64,000 nucleotides of DNA, taken from Myxococcota bacterium (GTDB lineage Bacteria > Myxococcota_A > SURF-8 > G963663525). A program made the position numbers and the translations under genes. Numbering within the stretch: position 1 is the first letter of the stretch; every line of letters starts with the position of its first letter. The DNA lies in NCBI GenBank assembly GCA_963663525.2, contig CAXXHC010000001.1, positions 1,030,572-1,094,571 of the forward strand, in the 5' to 3' direction. The notes under the pieces were generated by a model that saw nothing but the letters and a program-made list of their open reading frames with translations, did no database searches and was not told where the DNA came from. Shown here piece after piece: positions 32,728-58,826 of the stretch.

Positions 32728-32735
32728 AAGGAAAA

Positions 32736-35150: not shown

Positions 35151-35402
35151 CTAAGTGACAGAAGCAACGTGAAGAGATTTCGATGTTCCATACGTTCTTT
35201 CGAATCACCGTTTCGTCCGACCCCGCGGGTGCCAGTGCTCCGACGAGAGCTTGACCGTGAATGGGGCGGACGATTCTTGCACGGAATCATGGCGCGTGAA
35301 ATACGACGCCGAATAGATGGATGAACGAAGGACGGCTTGACATCGATGAAAAAAAATGGGGGAATCTGCTTGACAAACAGGTCTCTCTTATAGATGGCAC
35401 CC
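35151..35402 (+). repeat. Repeat B, copy 1 (252 bp), non-coding segment that follows the small ORF family
   Basis: Aligned by hand block by block with the reverse complement of 58576..58826. The only differences are A8 versus A7 and one C/T substitution. Confidence 0.9.
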
Positions 35403-35482
35403 TTCCAAACAAACGTCCTTCCATGGAAATCATGGCAAGAAGTAGAACGGAATTGCCGCAGGGAGGGGAAGAAAACCGCCGA

Positions 35483-36232
35483 TTAAAAACTCAGATCGGC
35501 GGTTTCGACGGCTTTCATCAGGTTGGATTCGTTGTCGTCGGAGACGAGGGTGTAGACCAGTTTGCGATCGCGCCAGGCCACCACGTTGAAGCCGCGCCGC
35601 TGGTCGAGATAGACTTCGCGGTTTCCGGCGCGTCGCATGGTTCCGGCGAGCGGGTGGTTGTCACCGTCACTGGCCACCACCAGCGAATATCGCCGCCCCT
35701 CCCGCTGAAATCCGTAGTAGGCGGCGGAATGGTTGTACACGCGGTCCACGCGCCCGCCGACGAGTTCCATACGAGCCCCGGTGAATTTCACCGAGGGGAC
35801 GGCGAAGCCCGTCTTTTTGCGCAGGTAGCTGCGTACCGTCAGGTAGTCGGGTGACTGCACGTCGTAGGGTAGTTCCTTGGCGTGAACGTCCACCGCCGCT
35901 TCGACGACGGGGGAGATTTCGATGCGTGGTTGGAAGAGAATCACCGCGAACACGAGCGCCATGGCCATCGCCGGGGCGAGTTTCCAGGCCAGCGGCACGC
36001 TGTTTTTCCGCTGTTCTCTCAGCAAAAGCGTGATCTGAGCGCGGAGCGCGCGCGGGGCTTCCTCTCCGGCCAGCGCCTGGCGCATCCCACGTTTGAACCA
36101 CTGTTCGAACGCGACTTTCTGCTGGCAGACCGGACAGTATTTGAAATGGGATTCGATTTCCCGTTCTTCCCCTTCGGTGAATTCTCCGTCGAGGTACGGC
36201 TGAAGATATTGTTCGAAGTCTTTGCAATCCAT
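35483..36232 (-). CDS. Anti-sigma factor (zf-HC2 type, single TM)
   Basis: MDCKDFEQYLQPYLDGEFTEGEEREIESHFKYCPVCQQK (H-x3-C-x2-C). TM segment LAPAMAMALVFAVILF. Lies directly downstream of an ECF sigma gene. Confidence 0.85.
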   Translation of the reverse strand: MDCKDFEQYLQPYLDGEFTEGEEREIESHFKYCPVCQQKVAFEQWFKRGMRQALAGEEAPRALRAQITLLLREQRKNSVPLAWKLAPAMAMALVFAVILFQPRIEISPVVEAAVDVHAKELPYDVQSPDYLTVRSYLRKKTGFAVPSVKFTGARMELVGGRVDRVYNHSAAYYGFQREGRRYSLVVASDGDNHPLAGTMRRAGNREVYLDQRRGFNVVAWRDRKLVYTLVSDDNESNLMKAVETADLSF

Positions 36233-36245
36233 GAGTACTTCCCCC

Positions 36246-36905
36246 TCAGTGTTTCTCGCGCGATCCGTTGACCGCTTTGAGCGAGGTCACGGTTGCCTCT
36301 TTGCCCTCTTTATCGGCGTCATTCGACGCCACTTTCACGATTCCCTCGCGAACCGCGTACTCTTCCAGCACTTTTTTCAAGGCCCGGCGTCCCCGGTTGA
36401 GACGGGACATGATGGTGCCGATGGGGATGTCGAGCGCCTGGGCCGCTTCGGCATAAGAAAATTCCTGCAAATCCACCAGATCCACCACGATGCGGAAGTT
36501 TTCGGGCAGATCCCGAAACGCTTTCTGCACCTCGTCGCTCATCGAGTCGCCCATGGGAACGTCGTGACGCGCGAACTCCGTCTGCGTCCAGCTATCGATG
36601 AAGCGGCCTTCGATTTCGCCGAAATCGAAATCCCGCGCGACGTGTTCTTTTTCCCGGCGGTTTTTGCGGTACTGGTTGATGAAAGTGTTTGTAAGGATTT
36701 TGAACATCCAGGCCTTCAGATTGGTACCTTCTTGGAAACCATCCTTGAAACGGTAGGCGCGCAGGTAGGTTTCCTGCACGAGATCTTCGGCGTCTTTCTG
36801 ATTGCGAGTCATGCGCAAGGCGCTGGAGTAGAGACTGTCCATCATGGCGAGTGTTTGCTCGGTGAATTCGTTGTCTTTTTTGCGTGTCGAAAGCCAGCCG
36901 AACAT
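36246..36905 (-). CDS. ECF-type sigma-70 family factor
   Basis: [43 protein letters not shown] (region 2). [31 protein letters not shown] (region 4). Confidence 0.9.
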
Positions 36906-37034
36906 GCTGTCGTTCTCCTTGCGTTCCGGGTTCCCGAAAAACCCGGTGTTCCCTTCGTCGGGAGTGTCAACAACCTCTACCCGGCGATTATTCCCGACCC
37001 CGCTTTTTTTGCCGGGCGGGGGCGCAGATTTCGA

Positions 37035-38477
37035 TCATTCGAAGCGCAACAGCGCCTTTGATTCCGTGCCGACGACCGGCAGGCGGGGATCGAACCTCGG
37101 CAAGGCCGCATCGACCGTTCCCCCCGGTTGCCATCCGATACGGATACGCACCACCTGTCCGCCGGAAAAAACTCCCGGTTTCCCTTCCTCGAAGCACGCG
37201 CCGGGTTGTTCTATGTCCCCGTTTTCGTAGAAGAAACGGGGAAAGGCTTCATCCTGCCTTCGTTGCTTGCGATAGGGCCACAAGGCCGTAAAGGTTGCCG
37301 AGGGCACACCGTGTTCGACGAGGCAGCGCCCCAGTGTCTCCAGTCCCGTGACGGCTTCATCCAGTGCATCGGGTTGCAGCGCTTCCGGGTCGCTTCCGGG
37401 AAACGAAAGACTCATGCCGCCCAGCATCCGACCCTCGGAGTCGTCCTTGGAACGGTTGGAGAACAGGGCCGTTTCTACGGGCAACCCGTATGCGTCCCGC
37501 CACACCCAAAGTCCGGTGGGCAAGAGACCGGGACTGTATATTTTTCGAACATGCCGCGCGTCGTCGTCGTCCCAAAGCACGATCTCCACCGGCATTCCAT
37601 TTTCGTAGCGTCGGAATTCGCGCAGGCTTTTGTGGTCATCTAAGCAGGTCCACTCTCCGACCGGCTTCCCCCAGCCATCCCAGGTCATTTCGCAGGCCGG
37701 TTTGCGGGCGTCTTCGTCGTAGGCGTAGCGGGTCCACAGGTCGGCCTGTCCGAAGTTGTAGGCCACCTTCTGCTCTACCCGTCCCCGCCGATCCAGCGCC
37801 ACCCATTCCCCGTGGGGACGACCGAAGGCATCGACCGGGCGGATTTGCTCGCGGCCATCGTCCAGGCGACGCACCGGCACTTCCAGCTTCAGACGGCGGG
37901 AAATTTCGCCTGCGGCCATGTCGATTAACACGGCGTCGCCGTCGCAGGTGACGATCTGCAACTGCTTGAAATCAGGATCGAATCCGATGCTGTCCACCGG
38001 TTTCTGCGCACAGTGGGGAGAGCTTCGGGGCCGTGCGGGGGCGAGATCACCCAAGCGAAACCGGCGGAACAATCGCCCGTCGCGATACAGCCGCAGCACG
38101 GTGCGCGCATCCGGCTCCGGGCAACTTCCCAACGGGGAGTCGCAGTGGTTCGGACCGAGATAATCGGCGATCACGTGGCCCGTCGCCTCGATGAATGGCC
38201 GATACGGCTTCCAGGAAAATCCGTACAACGCCCGGCATCGACCGTCGGAACGCTCCCAGACGCGCCCTTGGGGCAGAGCATCGGAACCATAGGTAATTTC
38301 AAGAGATTTTCTTCCATCCACCACGAAGGTTTCCACGGCTAAGGTCACACCTTCTTTCTCGTCGGGAAAGCGGCAGGGCTCCTCGGATTCGCAAAATGCC
38401 GAGCCGGGAAAAAGCACCAGCAGCGCTCCGAGCAGCCACCCCAGAAACGTGGTGTGTGTTAACGGCATTGCGCCCAT
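37035..38477 (-). CDS. Secreted hypothetical protein with MORN/YwqK-like repeats (tentative)
   Basis: Signal peptide LGWLLGALLVLFPGSAFC. Repeated G.P.GEW motifs (GRPHGEWVALD; GKPVGEWTCLD). Overlaps the upstream M23 gene end by 19 nt. Confidence 0.6.
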   Translation of the reverse strand: MGAMPLTHTTFLGWLLGALLVLFPGSAFCESEEPCRFPDEKEGVTLAVETFVVDGRKSLEITYGSDALPQGRVWERSDGRCRALYGFSWKPYRPFIEATGHVIADYLGPNHCDSPLGSCPEPDARTVLRLYRDGRLFRRFRLGDLAPARPRSSPHCAQKPVDSIGFDPDFKQLQIVTCDGDAVLIDMAAGEISRRLKLEVPVRRLDDGREQIRPVDAFGRPHGEWVALDRRGRVEQKVAYNFGQADLWTRYAYDEDARKPACEMTWDGWGKPVGEWTCLDDHKSLREFRRYENGMPVEIVLWDDDDARHVRKIYSPGLLPTGLWVWRDAYGLPVETALFSNRSKDDSEGRMLGGMSLSFPGSDPEALQPDALDEAVTGLETLGRCLVEHGVPSATFTALWPYRKQRRQDEAFPRFFYENGDIEQPGACFEEGKPGVFSGGQVVRIRIGWQPGGTVDAALPRFDPRLPVVGTESKALLRFE

Positions 38478-39547
38478 TCTTCCGGGTCTTGCGGGCGGCC
38501 TTTCTTGCGGATTTCAAAATACAGGCCCGGCGCGTCGAGGCTGCCCGTCGAACCCACGTAGCCTAGGACGTCCCCCGCTTCGACTTCCACGCCCTGGGGT
38601 TGGGCGATGGATTGCAAGTTGGCGAAAAGAGTATGGTATCCGGCTCCGTGGTCGAGGATAATCAGGTTGCCGTAGCCTTTGAAACGTCCCGCGAAGCGCA
38701 CCACGCCCTTGGAAATGGCCCGCACGGGACGGCCTTCCGGGGCTTGGATCTTGATACCCCGATGATAGACGTTGCCGATGTCGGTTTCCTCGTTTCCGAA
38801 ATTGGCCACGATGCGCCCCTTGACCGGGCAGGGAAGCTCACCCTTACTCTCGGAAAACGAGAGATTTCCCTTTTGCTTCGGCATCTTGCGGATTTTCCGG
38901 GCCAGATCTTGGCTGGCCTGTTTCTTTTCCTTTTCGAAGCGCTTGCGCAGTTTCGAGGAGCCCCGGATTTCCTTCAACATAGCCTTGCGAGTGGCCACGC
39001 CCTGGCGCATCACGGCCAGTTTTTCTTCCAGTTTTTGGGCGATTTCTTCGGCCTGGCGCTTGGCCTCGATGGATTTCTCGCGGGCCTCGCGGGTTTCGCC
39101 CACGGAGTCGAAATAGGCGTGGAAGGTTTTTTCGTCCTGCTTCATCAGGCAATCGAGGTAATGGTTGCGCAGGCTGAAATCCGCCACTCCTTCGGAGGCG
39201 AAAAGAAACTCCGCCTCGGCGACCCGCCCCATCATGTATGCCGCGCGCAGGCGCGTGGCCACGAGTTTTTTCTGATGCTCCATCCGTTTGAGGCTGGCGC
39301 TGTACTTTTTTTCGGCCTTTTCGCTTTCGTTTCGAAGTTCCTCGGCACGTTTGCGGGCCTGACGGGCTTCCGCGTCGGCCTTCTCCAGCCAGCGCTCCCA
39401 TTTGTCCAGCTCTTCGAGCAACGACGTTTCTTTTTGCGTCAGATCCGCCGCTTCGGGCAAGTTTTCTCCAAACGCCGACGCATTCCCGCCGATCGATGAG
39501 AAACCGTAAAATACAATAAAAATCAAGATGTTGCGTAGAAAACCCAC
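38459..39547 (-). CDS. envC: Murein hydrolase activator EnvC-like (coiled coil plus M23/LytM domain)
   Basis: Long coiled-coil N-terminus. C-terminal GRPVRAISKGVVRFAGRFKGYGNLIILDHGAGYHTLFANL...GDVLGYVGSTG. Positioned after ftsE-ftsX. Confidence 0.8.
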   Translation of the reverse strand: MGFLRNILIFIVFYGFSSIGGNASAFGENLPEAADLTQKETSLLEELDKWERWLEKADAEARQARKRAEELRNESEKAEKKYSASLKRMEHQKKLVATRLRAAYMMGRVAEAEFLFASEGVADFSLRNHYLDCLMKQDEKTFHAYFDSVGETREAREKSIEAKRQAEEIAQKLEEKLAVMRQGVATRKAMLKEIRGSSKLRKRFEKEKKQASQDLARKIRKMPKQKGNLSFSESKGELPCPVKGRIVANFGNEETDIGNVYHRGIKIQAPEGRPVRAISKGVVRFAGRFKGYGNLIILDHGAGYHTLFANLQSIAQPQGVEVEAGDVLGYVGSTGSLDAPGLYFEIRKKGRPQDPEEWAQCR

Positions 39548-39600
39548 GAGCCACCCGAGAAGAAAAACGTACCATCACGAAATTGAATCGAGCTTTCGTT

Positions 39601-39781
39601 GGTTCAGGTCTCCCGACCTGAACCATTCGTTTCTCGTCGGGTTTCCAACCCGACGGCATGAACCTGTGGAGCAAGTCGGGAGACTTGCTCCAACGAAGTT
39701 TCAAGCGGCATTTCGAGTAGGTAGGGCTAATTTCCAGCCCGACACCTTGGAATTGTCGGGTAAAACAATTCTCCGACCTAC
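39601..39781. repeat. Array of 3-4 GC-rich hairpins (REP-like) between envC and ftsX
   Basis: ggttcaggtc-tccc-gacctgaacc (39601-24). cgtcgggtt-tcc-aacccgacg (39634-55). tggagcaagtc-ggga-gacttgctcca (39667-92, core shared with 47157-47185). gtcgggtaaaacaattctccgacctac (39755-81, related to 47391-47417). Confidence 0.7.
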
Positions 39782-40677
39782 GCCGCCCGCTGGAGGAAGC
39801 GCGACACCGCCGCCGCCGCCGAAAGCGCACCCAGCACCACGCCCAGCAGAATCACCGACACGCACCAGGACAAGGGAAGAAATCCGGGTTCGAAGCCGGT
39901 GAACACCGTGCGCAACGCCTCCCCGGCGGAGTCGTGAACCGCCAGATGCAACACACCGAGCAATCCCAGCGCCATGAGCGATCCGAGAAGGCCCTGAATC
40001 GCCCCTTCGAAAATGTAGGGCGCGCCGATAAATCCGCCTGTTGCGCCGACAAGCCGAAGGATTTCCACCTCTTCCAGGCGTGCGTACAGGCGCATACGTA
40101 CCATGCTGGACACCAGAAAGGCCAGCGCGGCGGATACGCCCAAACCTACCAGCAATCCCGCCAGCTTGAACAGCGCGAGAAAGGCGTTGAGTTTTTGGAA
40201 AACCTCGCGCCCGAACAACACCTCGTCCACGCCATCCAGACCGGAGAGTCGCTGCGTGAAGCCGTCGAGTTCCACCGTTTCGTCCACCCAGGGTTTCAGC
40301 ACGATCTCGAAACTTCGCGGAAAAGGGTTCTCCGCGATGCCGTCGAGAATGAAGGCGCGTCCCGGAAATTTCAGTAAAAACAACTCCTTGGCCTTTTCGG
40401 CATCGACGAACTTCCACTCGGCGGCCTCGTCCATGCCTTTCAAGCTCTCTTTGAGCGCTTCCACCCCGGCTTCGTCCGCATCCGGCGACAAAAAGGCGTG
40501 CACCCGGATCGAGCGAGTCCAACTGCGGCTGGCGTCGTCGAGGTTGTAGGCCGCCAGAAGAAACGATTGCAGTAGCAGCAGGCAGACGGCGATCACCGAA
40601 AGGCTCATCATGGTGGGCCAGGGTTCCCGCACGAGCGATTTCACGGCCCGCCGGAGATGCTGAGTCAGCGTTTTCAC
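39778..40677 (-). CDS. ftsX: Cell-division ABC transporter permease FtsX
   Basis: Four-TM FtsX layout with a periplasmic loop. ..LVGATGGFIGAPYIFEGAIQGLLGSL.. Lies downstream of ftsE. Confidence 0.85.
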   Translation of the reverse strand: MKTLTQHLRRAVKSLVREPWPTMMSLSVIAVCLLLLQSFLLAAYNLDDASRSWTRSIRVHAFLSPDADEAGVEALKESLKGMDEAAEWKFVDAEKAKELFLLKFPGRAFILDGIAENPFPRSFEIVLKPWVDETVELDGFTQRLSGLDGVDEVLFGREVFQKLNAFLALFKLAGLLVGLGVSAALAFLVSSMVRMRLYARLEEVEILRLVGATGGFIGAPYIFEGAIQGLLGSLMALGLLGVLHLAVHDSAGEALRTVFTGFEPGFLPLSWCVSVILLGVVLGALSAAAAVSRFLQRAA

Positions 40678-40682
40678 GGCGG

Positions 40683-41363
40683 TTATTCGTCCTCCATCGG
40701 TACGGGCCGCGAGTCGGCGGCGATGCTCCCCCGGCTGAGCTTGATGACCCGTTGGTAACTTTCGGAATACAGAGAGGAATCGTGGGTCGCGACAACCACC
40801 GTCGCGCCTTTGCGGTGGGCGTCGTGGAGCAGGTCCATCACGCCTCGGGCGGATTCGTCGTCCAGGTTGCCGGTGGGCTCGTCCGCCAGCAGGATTTTGG
40901 GCTGGCCGATGATCGCCCGCGCCACCGACACCCGTTGCTGCTCCCCACCGCTGAGTTGCGGAGGATAGCTAAGTTGCCGATTTTCCAGGCCTACCGAGCG
41001 CAGGACGTGCTCGACCCGTTTGCGGATCTCCTTGGCTCCGACGCCCTGCACTTCCAGCGTGACCGCCACGTTTTCAAAGACGTTGCGGTTGGAAATGAGC
41101 TTGAAATCCTGAAACACCACGCCGATTTCCCGCCGCAGAAGGGGCAGTTTCCGACCGATGCGTCCCAGGTGTCGGCCCTGGATCAGCACCTGCCCGCCGG
41201 TGACGCGCTCGGCCCCGAAAAGCAGTTTCAACAGCGTGGATTTTCCCGCGCCGCTGACGCCGGTGAGAAAGGTGAACTCCCCTTCACGGATGCGCAACGT
41301 AAGATCCTCCAGGGTGTTTTTCCCCGGCTGGTAGGCTTTGGAGACTGAATAAAGACGAATCAT
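40683..41363 (-). CDS. ftsE: Cell-division ABC transporter ATP-binding protein FtsE
   Basis: Start chosen at the ATG at 41363 ([11 protein letters not shown]...). Walker [10 protein letters not shown], signature LSGGEQQR, Walker [13 protein letters not shown]. The track ORF extends 46 codons further upstream without support. Confidence 0.9.
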
Positions 41364-41643
41364 GGATGCTTCACGGGTTCCGTTTGAAAGGGAAAGCTTT
41401 TCTCGATTGTCGTGAGATTTCGCGGAAATGCAAGCTTTTCCGTGAGGATTTCGTGGAAAGGGGGCGGGGATTTTCCCGTCGTTGGACGTTTTTCGTTTCA
41501 AAGGTAGGTCGGATAGCTTTGCTATCCGACATCTTCGGGATGTGCAGGGAATGTGCCGGGGAACAAGATTTTGGACAAACTCTTTTGTTCCTCTGATAAT
41601 TCTAATAAGTTCGCCAAAGAGGATTTATACGATAGAATAGCTA

Positions 41644-42144: not shown

Positions 42145-42304
42145 GTTGATCCTCGTTATATTGAAGGAATTATTATTTGCATATAGAAAGAATCTACTGC
42201 ATTTCATGAAGAATGTCAATTGCAGTATTTCACTTTGGAATTTTTCCCAAGGCTTTCCGTTGCTCCAGGTTTCCAACCTGAACCGAAACGTTTCGGAGTT
42301 TGTA

Positions 42305-42397
42305 TCAGCCTAAAAAACTCCATTCCTTTTTAGCAAAATCATAGAAATGCCGTCCGAACGGTGGGATCTCTACCCAATGAAACATTGGGTTTTCTGA
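42305..42397 (-). pseudogene. 3' part of a membrane protein gene split by ISL3 type 2, copy 2
   Basis: After removing 42406..43917 plus one TSD copy, the frame continues ..WPHNK-ISENPMFHWVEIPPFGRHFYDFAKKEWSFLG* (stop at 42307-05). Confidence 0.6.
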
Positions 42398-42405
42398 AAT
42401 TTTAT

Positions 42406-43917: not shown

Positions 43918-43925
43918 AATTTTAT

Positions 43926-47325: not shown

Positions 47326-47390
47326 CTTGTCAAAGACTTCCCGTTCGTTCCTGAAAACTGCCGAGCTTTGCGGGACACGAACTCGGAAAT

Positions 47391-47417: not shown

Positions 47418-47451
47418 ACTGTTATAAAAAATTCTCAGGAAATTCAAACAC

Positions 47452-49528: not shown

Positions 49529-49536
49529 GAATGCTC

Positions 49537-50897: not shown

Positions 50898-53405
50898 TCA
50901 CCGGGTACGGGCGAGAAGGGTGGTGTCCAACTCGGGATGCATATGCGTCAATGCCTTGAACAACCATCGCTCGTCGGCATGGAGTTCGAGAATGGACGGG
51001 TAGCGATAGTCGCTGATTTCTCGGTGCTTCCGGCCTTTGGCCTGGCCGATGACCATTCGTCCGGTTCGGTCCGTGGTGGTTTTCACGTACAGCACGCTTG
51101 CGGGTAAGGAGCCTAAGTTGGAAGCTCCTTCCAGGTCGGTGACGAGCCGCCAGTATTTTTCATGGTCGATGGCGACAAACATGCGACGCAGCGACTGGAC
51201 GGGGGTTTTCAGAAACAACGCAACGTGTCTGTTCCGGCAGTCGTTTTTCATTTTTTCATACAATTGCCCGGAAAGATGCAAAATGGAGTGGTCGATGGGC
51301 CGGACGTAGGAAGTGGGCTTTTTATTCCAGTCTTCGTAAGGGTGCGCCACGAATCGGTTCGTCCGCCATGCGTTGCACGTCGTGTCGTTCATGTCGGCCT
51401 GAACGGTGTATTCGATCCGGCTGCGATCGATCCAGCTATCGATCGATCTCAACACGGCGACGTACTCGCCTTCGAGATCCAGGATGCGATAGGCCGAGGA
51501 CAGCTTCTTTTTCGGCAGGTCTTCACGCAGAATTTTCACGATCAACAGCGTTTTCTTTTTGGGATCGAGGGCGCGTTCGTCCGTCAGTTCCGAAAAGGAA
51601 AGAAACACCGGAACCGTTTGCATAAACTCTGTCAAATCATGGGTTTGCACGCGAAAGCGAATGTCCGGGTAGCTGTAGCCCCGTGCGGTCAGCTCTTTCG
51701 TGACGGTCTCCACGTCCGTCATCGTCCAGCAGGCTTCGGTGGTATCGGAGCCGTACACATCGTTCGAGCCAAGGCGTTGCAAATACGAATAGGTCCAAAG
51801 CAGGATATTGAGAAATACGAGAAATCGCAGAATGGGTTTGGTCTGAGAGGCGCCGATCCACTCGGAAAGCTTCTCCAGCAAACGCACGACCAGCACCGGA
51901 AGCAGCATGGCAGCGAATGGAAAGACGATTTGGAAGTAATGGTTCCACCAGTAAACGGCTCCGCGCATTCCAAATCCTTGCAGGAAATGCCAGACATCCC
52001 CGATCTTCACGGCGGATGCGATCCAGATCACCAGAAACAGGAAGAGGCCGCTGGAAAGGAAGGCGCTCTGGATCACCCAGCGATCCCGGCGCGTATGATA
52101 GAAGCGCCGAAGACCGGCAGCGAAAGGCACCCAGATGATGATTCCGAACAGCGACAAGCCCAGCAGCGTGGGAAACGCCGCCTCCAGGTATACGAGGTTC
52201 ATGACGTTGATGTAATAGCCTTCGTGGCTGTACACGGACACCAGAAGCGCAAGGACGCAAAGGGGCACGAAAATCGCCCGAAAGGGTCTGCGGGCGTAAA
52301 CGGCGACATAGGTGGCGTAAATCACCACGAGAAAATAGTTGAGGATGTGCCCCTCTCCGGCCAGGAAAAGCGCCAGCAGAGCCAACCACCGATAACGCGC
52401 GGATTTTCGGTGTACGTAAAGCGACAGCGAAGCCATGAACGCCAGAATGAAAAACGAGTTGAGCGAGTCGTTGTAGAGATTGGGAAACAGCGACCAGCCC
52501 AGGACGAGATACAGCGAAAACAGCGCCGTGGCCAGCGCGAAACGGCGTCCGATCATCCGGATGGTGAACAGGTAGACCAGTCCGGTCTGGATACCCAGAA
52601 AACCGACCATCATCAGGTGCATCTGCCGGATCGACACACCAAGCCACTGCAACGAAGCGAAAATGTGGATCGGTAACGCGCCCATCAGCCATCGCCTGCG
52701 CAATCCGCCGCTGATGGATAAGCTATCGAAATCATTGCCCGAAAAATGGCAGCGGATACCTTCGACGCAATCCTTGGCCCACATCTGGTGCTGCACCACG
52801 TCGTCCAGAATCGGTACGCCATGAATTTTGTAGAGCAACGCCAGCACGGTTCCGACACTCAGAGCCAGCGCGATGACACAATGTCTTTTCGTGACAACGA
52901 AAGAGGTGGGAACTTCGTTGTGAGGACCGAGCACATGGGATAATATCGCCTGCATCGAGCGCCGTTCCCCCAGGCGACGAATGCTTTCGGGAATCGGCAG
53001 TGGTCCCGAATACCAGCAGCGTATCGCTTTGGACAAGCGACCGGGGAGCGGAACCGCTAGGAGCCATCCGGCAAGTATCCGGCACAGCAATACCAACAAA
53101 GCCAGACAAATATTGTAGGACAGCATCGAAGTGAGGGAGACGGAGCGGAAAAGATGCTGAATCCACGGAGTTTTCGCCCGGACCAATTCGGACGAATGCG
53201 ACTTATGGTGATTAGAAGAGGAAAACGTCGTGATTTCAGAGGTTTCGAGGTGTCGAGAGGAAAAAGAGGCAGGAAGTTCCGAAAGAGATTCCGAGGCGTG
53301 AGCGGAGGGAATAAAACGCGCTGTTCCCCCTGGGTCGGTAAAAAATATTATCGCGACGAGCGCTGCAAAACACCATCGCCGGGTCTGTAAACACCACCTC
53401 GGCAT
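50898..53405 (-). CDS. Large polytopic membrane protein (835 aa), possibly a GT-C-type glycosyltransferase; function uncertain
   Basis: More than 12 hydrophobic segments in the first ~520 aa, followed by a soluble ~300-aa domain. No motif recognised with confidence. The antisense ORFs are shadows. Confidence 0.6.
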   Translation of the reverse strand: MPRWCLQTRRWCFAALVAIIFFTDPGGTARFIPSAHASESLSELPASFSSRHLETSEITTFSSSNHHKSHSSELVRAKTPWIQHLFRSVSLTSMLSYNICLALLVLLCRILAGWLLAVPLPGRLSKAIRCWYSGPLPIPESIRRLGERRSMQAILSHVLGPHNEVPTSFVVTKRHCVIALALSVGTVLALLYKIHGVPILDDVVQHQMWAKDCVEGIRCHFSGNDFDSLSISGGLRRRWLMGALPIHIFASLQWLGVSIRQMHLMMVGFLGIQTGLVYLFTIRMIGRRFALATALFSLYLVLGWSLFPNLYNDSLNSFFILAFMASLSLYVHRKSARYRWLALLALFLAGEGHILNYFLVVIYATYVAVYARRPFRAIFVPLCVLALLVSVYSHEGYYINVMNLVYLEAAFPTLLGLSLFGIIIWVPFAAGLRRFYHTRRDRWVIQSAFLSSGLFLFLVIWIASAVKIGDVWHFLQGFGMRGAVYWWNHYFQIVFPFAAMLLPVLVVRLLEKLSEWIGASQTKPILRFLVFLNILLWTYSYLQRLGSNDVYGSDTTEACWTMTDVETVTKELTARGYSYPDIRFRVQTHDLTEFMQTVPVFLSFSELTDERALDPKKKTLLIVKILREDLPKKKLSSAYRILDLEGEYVAVLRSIDSWIDRSRIEYTVQADMNDTTCNAWRTNRFVAHPYEDWNKKPTSYVRPIDHSILHLSGQLYEKMKNDCRNRHVALFLKTPVQSLRRMFVAIDHEKYWRLVTDLEGASNLGSLPASVLYVKTTTDRTGRMVIGQAKGRKHREISDYRYPSILELHADERWLFKALTHMHPELDTTLLARTR

Positions 53406-53846
53406 ACCGTTTATGTTCCGCCCCCCTCGACGGATACAAGCCTTTTCAAAGCCCCGATAGTGCCAAACCTTCCGGGACTTTTCGCTGGATGTAAAAGAAA
53501 ATCAATGGATTGGACTGTAACGTGGGGCCGGAACAAAGTAAAGGCATCGTCGTGAGTTTGTTTCTTGGGAATGCTTTTCCGAGCACCGAACGGTGCGCAT
53601 AGAAGACGATTCCGGCCTGCCTGCACGTTTCAAGGATGCGAAAAAGACTCTAACCGACCGCTTTTTTCCTTCCCGGCATCCTATCAATTAAGTATTGGCC
53701 GAATTTCGGATCGAGCCGCGACGAGACGCAGGCCCGAACGATCCCAATCCTATACTTTATACAATTTCCCGACGTTTTCGAGACGGTGTTTCGAAAACGC
53801 CGGTCAAGGTATCGAACCGGTTTCTGTTTGCGAAAGAAGGGCGATC

Positions 53847-55457
53847 ATGGCGAATTCGCTGGTGATAAACTGTACCCCGCAGGAAACCCGCGTCGCACTG
53901 GTCGAGAACAACGCCACTGTGGAATTGTTCATCGAGCGTACCAAGGACAGGGGTTATGTAGGAAACATTTACAAGGGTCGCGTCAGCCGCGTGCTGCCGG
54001 GGATGCAGGCCGCATTCGTGGATATCGGCCTGGAAAAAGCGGCGTTTTTGTACGTTTCGGACGTGTTTTCCCCCGATTACGACTATTCCAGCTTCGTCAA
54101 TCGGAATGGCGAAGAATACGAAAATGGCGATGGCGAGGACGACAAGGACGTGCAGAACCGTCCCCAGGGAAGACAGAATCCCCGTGTAGAGGGAGATTCC
54201 TCGCCCGTGCCCGTGCGTGTGATGCACATCGAAGACCTGCTCAAAGAAGGGCAGGAAATCATGGTCCAGGTGGCCAAAGACCCCATCGGCACCAAGGGTT
54301 GCCGGGTCACCACCAACATCAGCCTGCCGGGTCGTCACCTGGTCTACATGCCCTACATCGACCACATCGGCATTTCCCGGCGCATCACCGAGGAATCCGA
54401 GCGCGCCCGGCTGCGCGATCTGATGGACAAAATCCGCCCGACGGGCAGCGGTTTCATCGTCCGTACGGTCGCCGAAGGCATGAACGAAAAGAAGCTCCGC
54501 GCCGACGTGACGCTGCTCGTCAATCTCTGGAAGAAAATCCAGGTCGATCACGACAAATCACCCGCCCCGGTGATTCTTCACTACGATATGAACCTGATAT
54601 TCCGTGCCGTGCGCGACCTGTTCACCAGCGACATCGACCGGCTGATCGTGGACGACCGGGACCAGTTCAACGAAATCACCCGCTTCATCAAAACCTACAT
54701 TCCGAATTTCAAGTACAGTCTCGAATTGTACGAAGGCAGCGAACCGATTTTCGACCACTTCAGCGTGGAGGTGGACATCAACCGGGCCTTGGGCCGGAAA
54801 GTCTGGCTGAAATCGGGAGGTTATATTATCATCGACCAGGCCGAGGCACTCACCGCGATCGACGTCAACACCGGGCGGTTCGTCGGCAAGCGCAACCTTG
54901 AGGACACGATCCTCAAGACAAACCTCGAAGCCATCAAGGAAATCGTCTATCAACTGCGCCTGCGCAACATCGGCGGCATCATCATCATCGACTTCATCGA
55001 CATGGAGCGCGAAGCGCACCGCGAGAAAGTCTACAGCGATCTGGAAGAGTCGCTCAAAGCGGACAAGGCCAAAACCCACGTGCTGAAAATCTCGGAATTG
55101 GGCCTTGTGGAAATGACGCGCAAGCGCATCCGCGAAAGCCTGGGCCGAACCCTGTGCGAACCCTGTTTCTACTGCGACGGCAAGGGTTATCTGAAGAGCA
55201 AGACGACGATCTGCTACGAAATCTACCGGGAGGTCAAGCGCGAAATCGGCAACGTGCAGGGCAGCGTCGTGACCATCAACGCCCACCCGGAAATCGCCGA
55301 CATGCTAATCGACGACGAAGCCGAGATGATCGCCTTTTTGGAGCGCAGGTATAAAAAGAAAATCCACGTACGGGCGCTCAACTTCTTCCACCTCGAACAA
55401 TACGAGGTCATCGAGCGCTCTTCCATTGCCGGGCCTCGCGGTCGAGGGCACCGCTGA
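53847..55457 (+). CDS. rng: Ribonuclease G/E family endoribonuclease (Rng/CafA-like), 536 aa
   Basis: ATG at 53847. S1 domain VGNIYKGRVSRVLPGMQAAFVDIGLEKAAFL. ..GSGFIVRTVAEG.., ..GGYIIIDQAEALTAIDVNTGRF.., ..NIGGIIIIDFIDM.., ..CEPCFYCDGKGY. Confidence 0.9.
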   Translation: MANSLVINCTPQETRVALVENNATVELFIERTKDRGYVGNIYKGRVSRVLPGMQAAFVDIGLEKAAFLYVSDVFSPDYDYSSFVNRNGEEYENGDGEDDKDVQNRPQGRQNPRVEGDSSPVPVRVMHIEDLLKEGQEIMVQVAKDPIGTKGCRVTTNISLPGRHLVYMPYIDHIGISRRITEESERARLRDLMDKIRPTGSGFIVRTVAEGMNEKKLRADVTLLVNLWKKIQVDHDKSPAPVILHYDMNLIFRAVRDLFTSDIDRLIVDDRDQFNEITRFIKTYIPNFKYSLELYEGSEPIFDHFSVEVDINRALGRKVWLKSGGYIIIDQAEALTAIDVNTGRFVGKRNLEDTILKTNLEAIKEIVYQLRLRNIGGIIIIDFIDMEREAHREKVYSDLEESLKADKAKTHVLKISELGLVEMTRKRIRESLGRTLCEPCFYCDGKGYLKSKTTICYEIYREVKREIGNVQGSVVTINAHPEIADMLIDDEAEMIAFLERRYKKKIHVRALNFFHLEQYEVIERSSIAGPRGRGHR

Positions 55458-55463
55458 GTCGCA

Positions 55464-56588
55464 TTATCCTTCGATGACTTCGACGTTGGCGCGGGGCACG
55501 ATGGCGCGTTCGCCTTCCTGAAAAACCACTTCCAGAACACGAACCTTGGTTTCGCTTTCCAGCGTGGCCAACTCGGCGGGAAGTTTGCCCACCTTGCCGA
55601 TACGCCCGAAATACGGCGTGCGAATGCAGCGTACCGGCATCCCCGCCTCGAGAATCGCCCCCTCGTCCTTGCGGTGTTCCTCGCGTTTTTCCACGTCCAG
55701 CGGAATGATGACTTCGGGCCGGATCACCCCGGCGCGGATCTGTGTGGCTCCGTTGATCGACACCGGGCGTCCTTCGTGTTTTTTCAACAGGTTCCAGGTC
55801 GCCTCGGCCATGGCGATATCTCCGAAACCTTCCGTGACCAGCAACGTGACGCCGAGCTTTTCCTGCCCGGTGATCGCGACCCCGAGATCGTAGCCTAAAA
55901 AATCCCGCAGGTCGCGGTCGTCCAGGCCACCGGTGACGATTCCTGCCACACCCATTTCCACGGCGCGGCGGACGGCTCCGGCGGTGGTCATTCGTCCGGC
56001 GACGATCACTTTTTTTCGAAAATTTTCGGAAATCCGTGCTTTATCAAGCACTTCGTTCGGTCCTTCGACCGCCAGCGCCAGTTCGCCGCCGGTTTCCCCG
56101 CCGACACCGAAAATTCCCTGAATGAAGCCCACGGATGATTCGATAACGACGCCCTCGCCTTCCTCGACCTCGACGACCTGCCCCGGAATGTAGGCGTTCA
56201 CCTCGACCGGCAGCGGACGGCCCCGTAAAATCACCTGTCCGGTGACGGTGGAGATGTTTTCCACCGTGCCATCGATGGGCGAGGTCGCCTCGGAGCGAAA
56301 CAGGCCAAAAAAGCTTTTGGATTCGGCGATTTTCTCCCCGGCGGAAACGGCGTCTCCGTTTTTCTTGAGCATCGCCAAGCCGATTTCGCGAGGTTCCAGA
56401 CCAAGTTGGTTGGCGATGTTGACCGGGAAGACGTCGCCGGGCAACTCGGTGCGCGCCACCACGTCGTCCGGTTGCACGAAGGCTCCCGATTTCACAACAA
56501 CTTCGCCCTGGATGGGCAATCTTCGGCGTTTGCGGATGGTGGTGCGCGCGGTGACTTTCAATCCCGGCGTGTAGGCATGACCCATCAT
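55464..56588 (-). CDS. Conserved hypothetical protein (374 aa) co-transcribed with the GlmL-like ATPase
   Basis: The start overlaps the upstream stop by 4 nt (56585-88). The N-terminal half looks like a barrel-sandwich hybrid-type fold and the C-terminal half is Gly-rich and Rossmann-like (tentative, pattern only). Confidence 0.6.
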   Translation of the reverse strand: MMGHAYTPGLKVTARTTIRKRRRLPIQGEVVVKSGAFVQPDDVVARTELPGDVFPVNIANQLGLEPREIGLAMLKKNGDAVSAGEKIAESKSFFGLFRSEATSPIDGTVENISTVTGQVILRGRPLPVEVNAYIPGQVVEVEEGEGVVIESSVGFIQGIFGVGGETGGELALAVEGPNEVLDKARISENFRKKVIVAGRMTTAGAVRRAVEMGVAGIVTGGLDDRDLRDFLGYDLGVAITGQEKLGVTLLVTEGFGDIAMAEATWNLLKKHEGRPVSINGATQIRAGVIRPEVIIPLDVEKREEHRKDEGAILEAGMPVRCIRTPYFGRIGKVGKLPAELATLESETKVRVLEVVFQEGERAIVPRANVEVIEG

Positions 56589-58450
56589 TCGCCTCCTTGA
56601 CCAAGAAATTCATGGGGATAGACGTCCAGGTCATCGAACCAGCGGGCCAACAAAGCCTGGCGCTTGGCGTCGTTTTCCGGCAGTTCCAGCGGTCGTCCTC
56701 TCAGGTCGAACAGCAGCCCGACCACGCCGCCGTGCACGGTGGTTTCGAGGGGTTTTCCGGCTCCCGCACCCACATCGATTCCGCGCATCGGTTCGGCCAC
56801 GAGCCGCGCCTCTTCGCCATCTCCCAACGGGTAAAGTTTCAGATCCCCATGAGCCAGCGTTTCCGTCACGGCCCCGGAAGGAAGTTCCAAGGTGATTTTC
56901 ATCGCGGGTTTGCCCGGTTTTCCGCGCCCGCGCGGGGCGATGCAGTCGCCCAGGTGAATCATGCAGTCTTTTTCGAAAATTTCGGCGGCGGCCTGGGGAT
57001 GCAGTTCGGAAAGCACGCCCAGATGAGGCATCATAAAAATCGAATCCACCGCCAGCATGGTCACGCCTTCGGGCAGGAAGGCGTCGAGCAGCATCATCGC
57101 GGTCTGTACCCGGCGCGGAGCGTGGGACAGCACCCCGCCGGAACCCACGAGGAGGTTCAGCGCCATCATGTTGACGATGGTCATGCCTCCCTCGGACTGG
57201 TCGAAGGCGTCGGAAATCGTCCGGGCGGTCTGCACGCCCTTGAGGCTGGTGGCGAATTCCTTGTGCTGGACAAAGGCCAGCCGCAGCGCTTCTTTTGCCA
57301 CCGCCTGTTCGATGGCGAGATCGTGCAAAGTCTGGGGAACGGTGGTCGGGCGAATCATTTTGTTCTTGATCGCGTTGCGCAGGGCGCGCTCGTCGGTGTC
57401 GAAAGGCACCCAGCGCATGATTTTGTCCAACCCCGCCGAAGCCAGCACGTTGGCGATGGAATAGCTCATGCCGAGGTTCGCCGATACGGTTCGGTTGAAT
57501 TTCGGACGTTTTTTGCCGTTTTCGACGATGGGAAAGACGCTGAACACGTCGGTGGTCGCCCCGCCGATGTCCACGCCGACCACGTTGACCGATTCGATCT
57601 GCGAAATCCGCTCGATGATTGCGCCTACCGCACCCGGCGTGGGAACGATGGGGGTGTCGGTCCAACTCATCAGTTTTTTGTAACCCGGCGCCTGCTGCAT
57701 GACGTGCTCCATGAAAAGATCGTGGATGGCGTCGCGAGCGGGGTCGAGGTTTTCGCGTTCCAGGGAAGGCCGCAGGTTTTCGGTGATGGTCAGATCGGTC
57801 TTTTTCTCAAGAATTTCGGTGATTTCCTTGCGTGCGTTTTGCGTGCCGGAGTAAATCACAGGAAGATTGTAGCTCTGTCCCAGACGCGGGCGCGGATTGG
57901 CGGCGCGAATCAATTCCGCCAGGGAAACCACGTGATCGATGCGCCGGGAGTCGTCGGTCAGGCCGGCCAGCAGGATCATGTCGGGTCGAAGCTGGCGGAT
58001 GCGCTCGATCTGCTCGTGGGGCATACGCTTGTCGTTGACGCTGATCGTGTCCATCACGATCGCCCCCGCCGACAGCGAGGCCCGTTCCGCGCTTTCCGCC
58101 GTCATTTTACGCACCACGCCGCTGACGAGCATCTGCAAGCCGCCGCCCGCCGAAGAGGTGGAAATGTAGATGTCCACACCCACGGGTTTGCCATCTTCGA
58201 ACCGTGCGGGCTTGATGAAGCTGCCGTCCTCGTCGAGCATGGACCGTCCAGAGAGTTCCTCGACTTCCTGGATGGCGTTGAGCACGCCCCGCGTGACGTC
58301 CTCGAACGGCGCTTCCACAGTAGTGGGCGCTTCGCCACGGTAGGTCTGGCGGTATTCGTCCCCCACTTTTTCGAAAAGAATGGCCTTGGTGGTGGTACTG
58401 CCGCAGTCCGTGGCGATAATCACCTTGATGTCTTCCGGTCGTCGCGTCAT
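56585..58450 (-). CDS. Glutamate mutase L (GlmL/MutL)-family ASKHA ATPase-like protein, 621 aa
   Basis: IIATDCGSTTTKAILF, YISTSSAGGGLQM, VVGVDIGGATTDVFSV: duplicated actin-fold phosphate loops as in GlmL-type reactivase-like proteins. The antisense 697-aa ORF is a shadow. Confidence 0.7.
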   Translation of the reverse strand: MTRRPEDIKVIIATDCGSTTTKAILFEKVGDEYRQTYRGEAPTTVEAPFEDVTRGVLNAIQEVEELSGRSMLDEDGSFIKPARFEDGKPVGVDIYISTSSAGGGLQMLVSGVVRKMTAESAERASLSAGAIVMDTISVNDKRMPHEQIERIRQLRPDMILLAGLTDDSRRIDHVVSLAELIRAANPRPRLGQSYNLPVIYSGTQNARKEITEILEKKTDLTITENLRPSLERENLDPARDAIHDLFMEHVMQQAPGYKKLMSWTDTPIVPTPGAVGAIIERISQIESVNVVGVDIGGATTDVFSVFPIVENGKKRPKFNRTVSANLGMSYSIANVLASAGLDKIMRWVPFDTDERALRNAIKNKMIRPTTVPQTLHDLAIEQAVAKEALRLAFVQHKEFATSLKGVQTARTISDAFDQSEGGMTIVNMMALNLLVGSGGVLSHAPRRVQTAMMLLDAFLPEGVTMLAVDSIFMMPHLGVLSELHPQAAAEIFEKDCMIHLGDCIAPRGRGKPGKPAMKITLELPSGAVTETLAHGDLKLYPLGDGEEARLVAEPMRGIDVGAGAGKPLETTVHGGVVGLLFDLRGRPLELPENDAKRQALLARWFDDLDVYPHEFLGQGGE

Positions 58451-58575
58451 ATCGTCTCGCTTCCCGATGGATTTTTTCGTGTTTCTAGCATAGTTTGCGT
58501 CGGACTACAAACGACGGGCGGGAAGAAGGTGGGCGATTCAATTCTTGAAGGATTACCCCCTCCAAGCACCTTCGC

Positions 58576-58826
58576 GGGTGCCATCTATAAGAGAAACCTG
58601 TTTGTCAAGCAGATTCCCCCATTTTTTTCATCGATGTCAAGCCGTCCTTCGTTCATCCATCTATTCGGCGTCGTATTTCACGCGCCATGATTCCGTGCAA
58701 GAATCGTCCGCCCCATTCACGGTCAAGCTCTCGTCGGAGCACTGGCACCCGCGGGGTCGGACGAAACGGTGATTCGAAAGAACGTATGGAACATCGAAAT
58801 CTCTTCACGTTGCTTCTGTCACTTAG
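58576..58826 (-). repeat. Repeat B, copy 2 (251 bp), inverted relative to copy 1
   Basis: See 35151..35402. Ends 125 bp upstream of the GlmL-like gene start and points toward it. Confidence 0.9.

What the first reader, a model, noticed from the sequence alone, without database searches (positions are those of the whole stretch)
35151..58826. Near-identical 251/252-bp inverted repeats (B) bracket a 23.2-kb block of housekeeping-type genes
35151-35402 and the reverse complement of 58576-58826 were aligned by hand in 10-nt blocks. They differ only by one A in a homopolymer (A8 versus A7) and one C/T substitution. The small ORFs immediately outside them (C1 and C2) are only about 55-60% identical.

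The non-coding segment has therefore either been homogenised (gene conversion) or duplicated very recently. As long inverted repeats, the two copies are a substrate for inversion of the 23.2 kb between them, which holds the sigma/anti-sigma pair, envC-ftsXE, the dehydratase cluster, rng and the GlmL operon.

B is GC-rich with many short stems (for example ccgtg...cacgg, ggcg...cgcc and the cccgcggg palindrome). In the 58-kb copy it sits 125 bp upstream of, and points toward, the GlmL-like operon. It could be a structured RNA or leader rather than junk.
Basis: seen in the sequence. Interest (0 to 1): 0.7.

Follow-up and report, generated by a model that had tools for sequence, protein, structure and literature searches.

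The report
Insertion-sequence guide-RNA ends flank inversion
The two near-identical 252-bp inverted repeats are the guide-RNA-carrying right ends of two copies of an IS1111/IS110-type insertion sequence that landed in two paralogous target sites, and a sister genome shows that the 23-kb block between them really has been flipped, so this is a well-documented mobile-element scar and not a new regulatory RNA.

Summary
The repeat is real: 35151-35402 matches the reverse complement of 58576-58826 at 99.2% (one indel, one substitution).

B is not a leader of the GlmL operon and not a homogenised spacer. It is the 3' non-coding right end (RE) of an IS1111-type member of the IS110 family.
- It aligns with the RE of complete elements from other metagenomes. 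Their DEDD transposases are 61-70% identical to the IS110-family transposase at 10344-11537.
- It ends exactly where those elements end.
- It carries a seekRNA/bridge-RNA-like fold with four helices (7 covarying pairs).
- CGCGGGTGCCA is complementary to the right flank, and GACCGTG is identical to the left flank. These guides co-vary with the flanks in relatives.

A conspecific contig (98-99% identical) has both insertion sites empty and the 23.2-kb block in the opposite orientation, joining window ~10.2 kb directly to ~58.6 kb. The most likely history has three steps:
1. Two IS copies inserted into inverted paralogous targets (R1, R2).
2. Recombination between them flipped the block.
3. Other mobile elements (MITE A, an IS5-family element, a 22-kb IS nest) then cut both copies at the same CTAA site.

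This is a new member of a known kind, of modest interest.

The parts
10105..10245 (+). R1, left part of the ~140-nt repeated target element (long hairpin), ending in the left target half GACCG plus core TG (10244-10245).
   Evidence: Continuous with the empty site in L001. It is 83-85% identical to R2.
10246..11515 (+). Left end (98 nt, subterminal IR ATAAGAGAG at 10251-10259), DEDD transposase gene (10344-) and first part of the 3' non-coding region of the IS1111-type element. It is cut at TTAG 11514-11517 by an IS427-like/ISL3 composite.
   Evidence: Pfam PF01548 + PF02371. The left end aligns with the left ends of L002-L008. Homologues at 61-73%. 11412-11444 aligns just after the transposase stop of L002.
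11516..33480 (.). 22-kb nest of insertion sequences (IS427-like, ISL3, IS4-type, IS630-type) with a few cargo or broken genes. It separates the left IS half from B copy 1 and is absent from the relative.
   Evidence: Pfam; self-blast; absent in L001/L007.
33481..35150 (-). IS5-family element (transposase 33511-34863; terminal IRs TCGTCCCTGAAAAA) carrying MITE A (34921-35095, TTAG duplications). Its right IR abuts B copy 1 at CTAA. It has no target duplication, so it is recombinant.
   Evidence: Pfam DUF772/DDE_Tnp_1; sequence; A repeat.
35151..35396 (+). B copy 1: the 3' non-coding region and right end (RE2) of the IS1111-type element. Features:
- seekRNA/bridge-like core 35189-35331
- top-strand-complement guide CGCGGGTGCCA 35224-35234
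- hairpin 35235-35250
- bottom-strand-match guide GACCGTG 35253-35259
- donor-type matches GGAATCA 35283-35289 and ATAGATG(G) 35313-35320 around hairpin 35290-35310
- -35 TTGACA 35370-35375
- subterminal IR 35383-35391
- core TG 35395-35396
   Evidence: Alignment to complete elements; structure; guides; coordinates.
35397..35402 (+). gcaccc, the right half of target R2. It is flanking DNA, not IS.
   Evidence: Present in the empty site of L007...gaccaTGgcaccctttc.
35403..58575 (.). 23.2-kb native block (anti-sigma/ECF sigma, M23 peptidase, FtsX/FtsE, one ISL3 insertion, MFS, HGD-D/BcrAD, RNase G, GlmL/MutL). It is inverted relative to the conspecific contig.
   Evidence: L001 9867-21070 = window 58583-47381; L007 6662-10839 = window 39571-35394. 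The flanks X and W are colinear.
58576..58581 (-). gcaccc (read on the minus strand), the right half of target R1. It starts the native GlmL upstream region.
   Evidence: Empty site in L001: gaccgTG|gcacccgcgaaag.
58582..58826 (-). B copy 2: the same 3' non-coding region and right end (RE1), with seekRNA-like core 58646-58788. It is cut at the same CTAA by MITE A.
58827..59000 (+). MITE A (about 20-bp terminal IRs, TTAG on both sides at 58823-58826 and 59001-59004). It sits at a deletion junction that removed the left end, the transposase and 12 nt of R2 (left half and core).
   Evidence: The intact R2 in L007 has the TTAG with no A.
59001..59126 (-). R2, left part of the paralogous target repeat, truncated at its TTAG.
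   Evidence: 85% identical to 10105-10228. L007 10851-13803 = window 59000-61952.

Best explanation
B is the right end of an IS1111-type insertion sequence of the IS110 family (DEDD transposase).

As in that family, the long non-coding region downstream of the transposase gene encodes a seekRNA/bridge RNA. In it, one single-stranded segment is complementary to the top strand of the target (TG+GCACCCGCG). A second segment, after a short hairpin, matches the top strand of the other target half (GACCG+TG). A second loop carries matches to the element's own ends.

Inferred history:
1. Guided by this RNA, copies of the element inserted into two paralogous copies of a ~140-nt hairpin repeat. R1 lies upstream of GlmL and R2 downstream of the anti-sigma gene. 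In the ancestral chromosome these flank a 23-kb block in inverted orientation, so both right ends faced the block.
2. Recombination between the two inverted IS copies flipped the block. This most simply was RecA-dependent. It left LE1+transposase at ~10.2 kb, RE2 (B copy 1) next to the anti-sigma end, and RE1 (B copy 2) next to GlmL.
3. YTAR-targeting elements hit the same CTAA site just upstream of the RNA gene in both copies: an IS5-family element at site 1 and MITE A at site 2. Recombination among their many copies then deleted the left end and transposase of the right-hand copy. It also inserted or accreted a 22-kb IS nest in the left-hand one.

Shown: the identity of B, the guide/target matches, the empty sites and the inverted orientation.
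Inferred: the order of events, the recombination mechanism, and whether the solo RNA genes are still expressed.
For: Repeat confirmed.

The IS110-family transposase at 10344-11537 has PF01548 + PF02371.

Complete relatives were compared:
- L002/L003: two copies of one 1559-bp IS in different contexts.
- L004.
- L005/L008: two copies of a 1.42-kb IS.
- In all of them B aligns at 71-85% to the region after the transposase gene and ends at their right boundary. The window's left end aligns to their left ends.

Four helices are 96.5% paired with 7 pairs changed on both sides. Slid controls give 36-50% paired.

Guides:
- The 11-nt antisense match to the empty target was reached by 3 of 5000 shuffles. 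The antisense match plus the 7-nt sense match together were reached by 0 of 5000.
- Across seven insertions the guides track three target classes. These include a G-to-C change in the flank mirrored in the guide, and wholly different left guides (GACCGTG, GCCYATG, ATCAGTG) matching their own left flanks at 5-7 of 7.

The order (top-strand complement first), the overlap at the insertion point, the subterminal IRs with 7-nt left and 3-nt right extensions, and the downstream non-coding region all match the published IS1111 description (PMC11187229).

The circle junction would create TTGACA-17-GATGAT in all relatives.

Empty sites and the opposite block orientation are seen in one 607-kb conspecific contig.
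Against: - No intact copy of exactly this IS (transposase followed by B) could be retrieved. The 372-aa copies in the source genome are not available as DNA, and their C-terminal tails differ from the window copy after nt 11420.
- Only four independent RNA sequences support the structure.
- Single-sequence folding energy is not exceptional (z = -1.3).
- No Rfam family matches.
- Expression is untested, and no convincing promoter was found in the linear context.
- Site 1 matches the guides less well than site 2 (6/7 and 8/11).
- The order of events and the recombination mechanism cannot be read from the end product.
Confidence: 0.87

Rival explanations
1. B is a cis-regulatory leader or structured RNA of the GlmL operon that has been duplicated elsewhere.
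For: B copy 2 lies 125 nt upstream of GlmL and points toward it. B contains conserved helices.
Against: The conspecific contig has an identical GlmL protein with no B upstream. B homologues always follow an IS110-family transposase gene and end at the IS boundary. Copy 1 points into the 3' end of a convergent gene.
Confidence: 0.02
2. One IS copy plus a recombinase-catalysed inversion. The transposase and seekRNA recombined the RE1/flank junction with the inverted paralogous target R2 and flipped the block directly. A further copy later inserted into the new hybrid target, giving the second B.
For: R2 is a cognate target (6/7 and 8/11 guide matches). The hybrid target R2-left/R1-right would match 6/7 and 11/11. 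The DNA invertase Piv is a relative of these transposases (PMC11187229). Copy-out-paste-in and alternative RNA-guided pathways are described for IS110 elements.
Against: It needs one more step than homologous recombination between two inverted copies, and it gives the same end product. No natural case is known to me. Nothing in the sequence discriminates between the two routes.
Confidence: 0.08
3. B is an autonomous 'selfish' RNA module that moves without the transposase gene, as described for ssr9 of ISPpu9. The two copies would be solo insertions, not remnants of full elements.
For: Solo copies of an RNA module downstream of an IS110-family transposase gene exist in Pseudomonas putida (PMC12288879). 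Both B copies lack an adjacent transposase gene and share the same left boundary.
Against: The left boundary is CTAA abutting other mobile elements (an IS5-family IR at site 1, MITE A at site 2), not the left target half required by the guide. The matching left end plus transposase sits on the other half of target R1 at 10246, so site 2 was a full-length insertion. 12 nt of R2's left half and core are deleted at site 2.
Confidence: 0.04
4. The pattern is an assembly artefact (a mis-joined or duplicated repeat), or a recent segmental duplication homogenised by gene conversion.
For: The window is extremely repeat-rich, with 100% identical 1.5-kb ISL3 copies. Only one assembly of this arrangement was seen.
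Against: Each B copy joins a different, independently verified native flank exactly at the guide-specified position. The copies differ at two positions. Proteins of this window are recorded on a 3.3-Mb contig, which suggests a long-read assembly. A 252-bp repeat is far shorter than long reads.
Confidence: 0.03

Closest known systems
IS1111-family insertion sequences with a seekRNA (ISEc11, ISPa11, ISKpn4, ISPst6; Siddiquee et al. 2024, PMC11187229)
   Same: - DEDD transposase and a long non-coding region downstream of the gene.
- Subterminal inverted repeats with a 7-nt left and 3-nt right extension.
- An RNA with a top-strand complement 5' of a bottom-strand match, overlapping at the insertion point.
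- Natural reprogramming of guides among relatives.
- A -35 in the right end that completes a promoter at the circle junction.
- Insertion into repeated palindromic elements.
   Different: - This is a different, uncharacterised element from an uncultured bacterium.
- Transposase membership of the IS1111 clade was not tested by phylogeny.
- The subterminal IR is 9-12 bp (the published range is usually 11-13).
- Here the element survives only as separated halves.
- RNA expression and binding are untested.
IS110/IS621 bridge RNA (two internal loops binding target and donor; my recollection of Durrant et al. 2024, and the abstract of bioRxiv 10.1101/2025.10.25.684509)
   Same: Two loops each hold an antisense segment and a sense segment around a hairpin. 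The first loop matches the target halves. The second matches core+left end (GGAATCA = reverse complement of TGATTCC) and right end+core (ATAGATG). A 2-nt core (TG) is shared by donor and target.
   Different: The RNA lies 3' of the transposase gene and the guide order is reversed relative to IS110-type elements. The donor-loop matches are imperfect in relatives (5-6 of 7 for the left-end match). The role of subterminal IRs in end recognition may replace part of the donor pairing.
ISPpu9 and its ssr9 module in Pseudomonas putida KT2440 (PMC12288879)
   Same: An IS110-family element inserted in repetitive extragenic palindromes, with an RNA gene downstream of the transposase gene and solo copies of that RNA gene elsewhere in the chromosome.
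   Different: There the solo copies arise from modular circles made by the transposase. Here the solo copies are explained by truncation at a CTAA site by other mobile elements plus an inversion.
Chromosomal inversions between inverted copies of an insertion sequence (general bacterial genome biology, my knowledge)
   Same: Two inverted IS copies bracket a segment that is found in the opposite orientation in a close relative lacking the copies.
   Different: Both copies are now reduced to 246-bp ends, so the present substrate for re-inversion is short.

Membership tests
IS110 family (DEDD transposase insertion sequences) | Transposase with an N-terminal DEDD/RuvC-like domain (PF01548) and a C-terminal Transposase_20 domain (PF02371) | tested here: met
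   Window 10344-11537: PF01548 E=3.7e-13, PF02371 E=2.7e-22. All homologues carry both domains.
IS110 family (DEDD transposase insertion sequences) | Site-specific insertion without a long target duplication; boundaries defined against an empty site | tested here: met
   Empty sites gaccgTG|gcaccc (L001) and gaccaTG|gcaccc (L007). Only the TG core appears at both junctions. L002 against L003 and L005 against L008 give the same boundaries.
IS1111 subgroup | Subterminal inverted repeats (usually 11-13 bp) with about 7-nt left and 3-nt right terminal extensions | tested here: met
   The left end is TGATTCC+ATAAGAGAG(GGC). The right end is (GCC)CTCTCTTAT+AGA. The IR is 9 bp in the window and 12 bp in L002, and the extensions are 7 and 3 (against PMC11187229).
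IS1111 subgroup | Long non-coding region downstream, not upstream, of the transposase gene | tested here: met
   In L002-L008 there are about 280 nt after the stop and about 100 nt before the start. In the window the upstream region is 98 nt and B is the detached downstream region.
IS1111 subgroup | Transposase falls in the IS1111 clade in a phylogeny of the family | not tested
seekRNA / bridge RNA | [quoted passage not shown] | tested here: met
   CGCGGGTGCCA (35224-35234) then GACCGTG (35253-35259). They match 11/11 and 7/7 to the R1 empty site and overlap at TG.
seekRNA / bridge RNA | Guides change together with targets among relatives (natural reprogramming) | tested here: met
   Three guide/target classes across seven insertions. 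Own-flank scores are highest within each class.
seekRNA / bridge RNA | Conserved secondary structure presenting the guides in loops | tested here: met
   Four helices, 35 pairs, 96.5% paired, 7 pairs with changes on both sides. The evidence is limited to four independent sequences.
seekRNA / bridge RNA | RNA is transcribed, binds the transposase and is required for transposition | not testable with these tools
   This needs RNA sequencing, pull-down and transposition assays.
Rfam-curated RNA family | Match to a covariance model at the gathering score | tested here: not met
   No hit on B at the gathering threshold. The best hit at E<=10 is OrzO-P, 16.9 bits against a gathering score of 60.

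The most novel reading that the evidence does not exclude
The 23-kb inversion was not made by homologous recombination. It was made by the IS1111-type recombinase itself, guided by the RNA encoded in B, acting between its own right-end junction and the inverted paralogous target R2. This would be a natural RNA-guided chromosomal inversion. The two surviving solo RNA genes, supplied with transposase from intact copies elsewhere in the genome, could still direct recombination at these sites.
Probability: 0.08. Interest if true: 0.65.

Novelty: new member of a known kind. Interest (0 to 1): 0.3.

Why it matters
The finding turns an apparently mysterious conserved non-coding inverted repeat into a fully explained object.

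- It adds an uncharacterised IS1111-type element from an uncultured bacterium, with its guide RNA, target repeat and both empty sites.
- It gives a small natural series of reprogrammed guides: three target classes.
- It documents a concrete case in which such elements, by choosing paralogous repeats in inverted orientation, set up a 23-kb chromosomal inversion. That inversion detached the GlmL operon from its native upstream region.

None of this is surprising to a specialist in IS110/IS1111 elements. Its value is as a clean annotation, and as a caution that GC-rich, stem-rich repeats next to operons can be guide-RNA genes of insertion sequences.

Tried and rejected
- Rfam at gathering score on the whole window, and at E<=10 on B and on the intact target repeat R, gave nothing meaningful.
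- Single-sequence folding of B on both strands gave z = -1.3 and -0.1, uninformative on its own.
- An exact-pattern scan of genome contigs with the B end gave 0 hits. A scan for relatives of transposase P0001 confirmed none.
- A scan of metagenome contigs with the invariant block GCCGAATAGATGNATGAACGAA gave 0 hits, although L005 (JGI) contains it. That collection therefore does not hold these contigs.
- Look-ups of the intact 372/376/402-aa transposase variants P0001-P0003, of the window's anti-sigma gene and of its sigma gene all failed.
- tblastn of the C-terminal tails of P0001 and P0003 against the window showed that they are not encoded in B or next to it.
- L006, a different species at 80% nucleotide identity, has other genes beyond the anti-sigma gene and was no use as an empty site.
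- My first guess that the 51 nt between A and B at site 1 belonged to the IS non-coding region was wrong. It is the right terminal IR of an IS5-family element.
- My first guess at that element's end (GGGGAGTAGAAATTGCAAG) was also wrong.
- The sigma-70 promoter scan found nothing in B in its present context.
- RNAalifold's pairing of the two target guides with each other, and of CCGUUU with the ATAGAT segment, was dropped. These pairs show no covariation, and one is broken where the guide tracks the flank.
Full report
**1. The observation**

Reading both sites and running repeat finder and blastn of the window against itself confirm the repeat. Region 35151-35402 (+) and region 58576-58826 (-) align over 252 positions at 99.2%. 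There is one indel (A8/A7) and one C/T difference. No third copy is in the window.

Immediately outside both copies lies a second repeat, A (34917-35099 and 58822-59004). It is 96% identical but in direct orientation, so it is flipped relative to B at one of the sites. A has about 20-bp terminal inverted repeats and TTAG on both sides at both sites. It recurs in related contigs. A is therefore a MITE.

**2. Context**

The window is an insertion-sequence graveyard. It holds:
- An IS110-family DEDD transposase gene at 10344-11537.
- ISL3 copies, two of which (31216-32729 and 42406-43919) are 100% identical.
- IS427-like, IS4-type and IS630-type elements.
- An IS5-family element at 33481-35150.

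**3. The key comparison**

The GlmL/MutL protein of the window is encoded identically on a 607-kb metagenomic contig (ENA ERZ21831104 ctg97262l; L001).
- L001 is 98.3% identical to window 379-10245. It then continues, at 99.0%, straight into the reverse complement of window 58583-47381.
- The junction reads ...cgaaagaccgTG|gcacccgcgaaag....
- In that genome there is no IS110 element at 10246, no B and no A. The GlmL block also runs the other way.

A second locus from the same contig (L007) shows the other end.
- The anti-sigma gene (window 35483-36232) is followed by ...gtttgaaagggtgcCAtggtctttcaccgTTAGgcgaatggccgtg...
- This runs on into window 59000-61952.
- Read on the other strand, that junction is ...gaccaTG|gcaccctttc...

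The relative therefore has the order X (window 1-10245), then the block in opposite orientation, then W (window 59001 onward). Both junctions are intact copies, in inverted orientation, of a ~140-nt hairpin-rich repeat. I call these R1 and R2; they are 83-85% identical.

**4. What B is**

The window's IS110-family transposase has homologues at 61-73% identity. I fetched four of their contigs:
- L002 and L003 carry two copies of one element in different surroundings.
- L004 carries one element.
- L005 and L008 carry two copies of another element.

Comparing copies fixes the element boundaries. The lengths are 1559, 1551 and about 1420 bp. In every case the transposase gene is followed by about 280 nt of non-coding DNA.

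B aligns to that DNA at 71-85% identity, and its end coincides with the right boundary of the elements. The 98 nt upstream of the window's transposase gene align with their left ends.
- Left ends start TG-AT(T/G/C)CC-ATAAGAGAGGGC.
- Right ends finish (G)CCTCTCTTAT-AGA-TG.
- These are subterminal inverted repeats with a 7-nt left and a 3-nt right extension.

This layout, and the downstream position of the long non-coding region, are the published hallmarks of IS1111-type elements as opposed to IS110-type ones (PMC11187229).

B is therefore the detached right end of such an element. The last six bases of the 'repeat' (gcaccc) are not IS at all. They are the right half of the target, present in both empty sites.

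**5. The RNA**

Between 35189 and 35331 the five available sequences share four helices.
- A closing stem (CAUACGUUC with GAACGAAGG).
- A stem that closes an internal loop.
- The hairpin inside that loop.
- A second hairpin.

On my alignment, 96.5% of cells are paired and 7 pairs change on both sides. When the partners are slid by 1-3 columns, only 36-50% are paired.

The single-stranded segments are the informative part.
- CGCGGGTGCCA (35224-35234) is the exact reverse complement of TG+GCACCCGCG, the core plus right flank of the R1 empty site.
- Eighteen nucleotides later, after the hairpin, GACCGTG (35253-35259) equals the left flank plus core.
- An antisense match of this length occurs in 3 of 5000 shuffles of B. 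Both matches together occur in none.

Across the seven insertions the same alignment columns track three target classes.

| Insertions | Left guide | Left flank | Right guide (as reverse complement) | Right flank starts |
|---|---|---|---|---|
| Window sites | GACCGTG | GACC(G/A)TG | TGGCACCCGCG | TGGCACCC |
| L002-L004 | GCC(C/T)ATG | GCCCGTG (L002), CCACATG (L003), GCCCATG (L004) | TGGCACCC(G/A)CG | TGGCACCC |
| L005/L008 | ATCAGTG | ATCAGTG | TGCCACCCACG | TGCCACCC |

In L005/L008 a G-to-C change in the flank is mirrored in the guide.

The order (top-strand complement first) and the overlap of the two matches at the insertion point are as described for IS1111 seekRNAs.

A second loop carries two further matches around the second hairpin.
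- GGAATCA is the reverse complement of TG+ATTCC, the core plus the left end.
- ATAGATG is the right end plus the core.

This mirrors the donor loop of bridge RNAs. In relatives the left-end match is only 5-6 of 7, so I treat that part as suggestive.

Joining right and left ends as in a circular intermediate creates TTGACA-17 nt-GATGAT in every relative. This is the junction promoter known for these families. In the present linear context the -10 is GATGGC, and the generic promoter scan finds nothing. No Rfam family covers the RNA.

**6. History**

Each B copy abuts its own native flank at the position the guides specify.
- Copy 2 abuts the R1 right half, which begins the GlmL upstream region.
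- Copy 1 abuts the R2 right half, next to the anti-sigma gene.

The matching left end and transposase gene sit on the R1 left half at 10246. This is the arrangement expected from three steps.
1. Two copies inserted in R1 and R2, and were therefore inverted with both right ends facing the block. Copy-out-paste-in, which keeps the donor copy, has been reported for an IS110 element.
2. A crossover between the copies inverted everything between them.
3. The product is X-LE1-transposase...RE2-block(inverted)-RE1...-R2-W, which is what the window shows.

Later or interleaved events account for the rest.
- Both copies are cut at the same CTAA just upstream of the RNA gene. CTAA is a YTAR site of the kind A uses; A has TTAG on both sides.
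- At site 2, MITE A sits between B and R2's own TTAG. The left end, the transposase gene and 12 nt of R2's left half and core are gone. This is as expected from recombination between two direct A copies.
- At site 1 the right terminal IR of an IS5-family element abuts the CTAA. That element has no target duplication (tcag against ctaa), so it too is a recombination product.
- The transposase-bearing half is cut at TTAG 11514-11517 by an IS427-like/ISL3 composite.
- Some 22 kb of IS-rich DNA now lies between the two halves.

An alternative route cannot be excluded. It runs: one insertion, a recombinase-made inversion against R2, then a second insertion into the hybrid target. It gives the same product with one more step.

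**7.

- A structured RNA: yes, but it is the guide RNA of an insertion sequence, not a leader of GlmL.
- Gene conversion or local duplication: unnecessary, because these are two young copies of one mobile element.
- Substrate for inversion: the inversion has happened at least once in this lineage. The remaining 246-bp ends could in principle mediate it again. Only long reads can say whether they do.
- Assembly artefact: unlikely, because each junction is corroborated base-for-base by the independent relative.

**8. What remains open**

- I could not obtain DNA of an intact copy of exactly this element.
- The 372-aa transposase variants recorded on the 1.85-Mb and 3.3-Mb contigs differ from the window copy after ...GRASGGDG (nt 11420). 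The reverse complement of 11414-11431 encodes part of their tail. A small hairpin region may be flipped between copies.
- Expression of the solo RNA genes is untested.
- The source of GlmL transcription after loss of its native upstream region is untested.
- The function, if any, of the R repeat is untested.

Noticed in passing
window 34921-35095 and 58827-59000; L006 1557-1727 and 5944-6123; L007 16279-16459: A 174-175-bp MITE ('A') with about 20-bp terminal inverted repeats (CCCGCATTATTCATGAGGA) and TTAG on both sides. It is multi-copy in this lineage and in a species only 80% identical. No parent transposase was identified.
   Followed up: partly
L001 9728-9880 and L007 10826-10977 (intact); window 10105-10245 and 59001-59126 (interrupted): The IS target is itself a ~140-nt repeated element. 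It has a perfect 17-bp hairpin (cccgggccatcgatccg-gaa-cggatcgatggcccggg), further small hairpins and an outer GGGTGCC...GGCACCC pairing. Left flanks of the related ISs in L002-L004 also start with GGGTGCC about 95 nt upstream. There is no Rfam match. It may be a REP-like element or a small structured RNA.
   Followed up: partly
window 31216-32729 and 42406-43919: Two 1514-bp ISL3 copies are 100% identical in direct orientation and span B copy 1 and the start of the block. They are a ready substrate for an 11-kb deletion. The first copy splits an X-Pro dipeptidyl-peptidase gene (29365-31332 plus 32760-33290).
   Followed up: partly
window 11516-13731 and 17706-19921: 2216-bp inverted repeats (97%) are made of an IS427-like element interrupted by an ISL3 element. 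They flank a 4-kb segment with a 1042-aa Lcl_C-domain protein gene (14009-17137). This looks like a composite-transposon-like or invertible unit.
   Followed up: no
window 33481-35150: An IS5-family element (DUF772 + DDE_Tnp_1 transposase, terminal IRs TCGTCCCTGAAAAA) has MITE A inserted in it. It has different 4-nt flanks (tcag and ctaa), which marks it as the product of recombination between two copies.
   Followed up: partly
window 11408-11445: The window's IS110-family copy diverges from the 372-aa variants of the same genome right after ...GRASGGDG. The reverse complement of 11414-11431 encodes the RPPRPS of their tail, so a palindromic GGAGGCCTTCGGCGAAGGCTCC region seems inverted or rearranged between copies.
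   Followed up: partly
window 13725-13824 and 27332-27431: A 100-nt perfect inverted repeat joins the end of the ISL3 composite to the end of an IS630-type element (DDE_3/HTH genes 27340-28487).
   Followed up: no
window 7077-7758: Five to six tandem 123-129-bp repeats (68-76% identical) lie inside the 1990-aa ORF 2666-8638. They are also present in the relative L001.
   Followed up: no
window 35455-35485, 59140-59170 and 10085-10105: A short purine/pyrimidine-rich motif (ttcttccc(t/c)tccctgcgg) recurs next to R1, next to R2 and after the anti-sigma gene, in differing orientations relative to the repeats. The significance is unknown.
   Followed up: no
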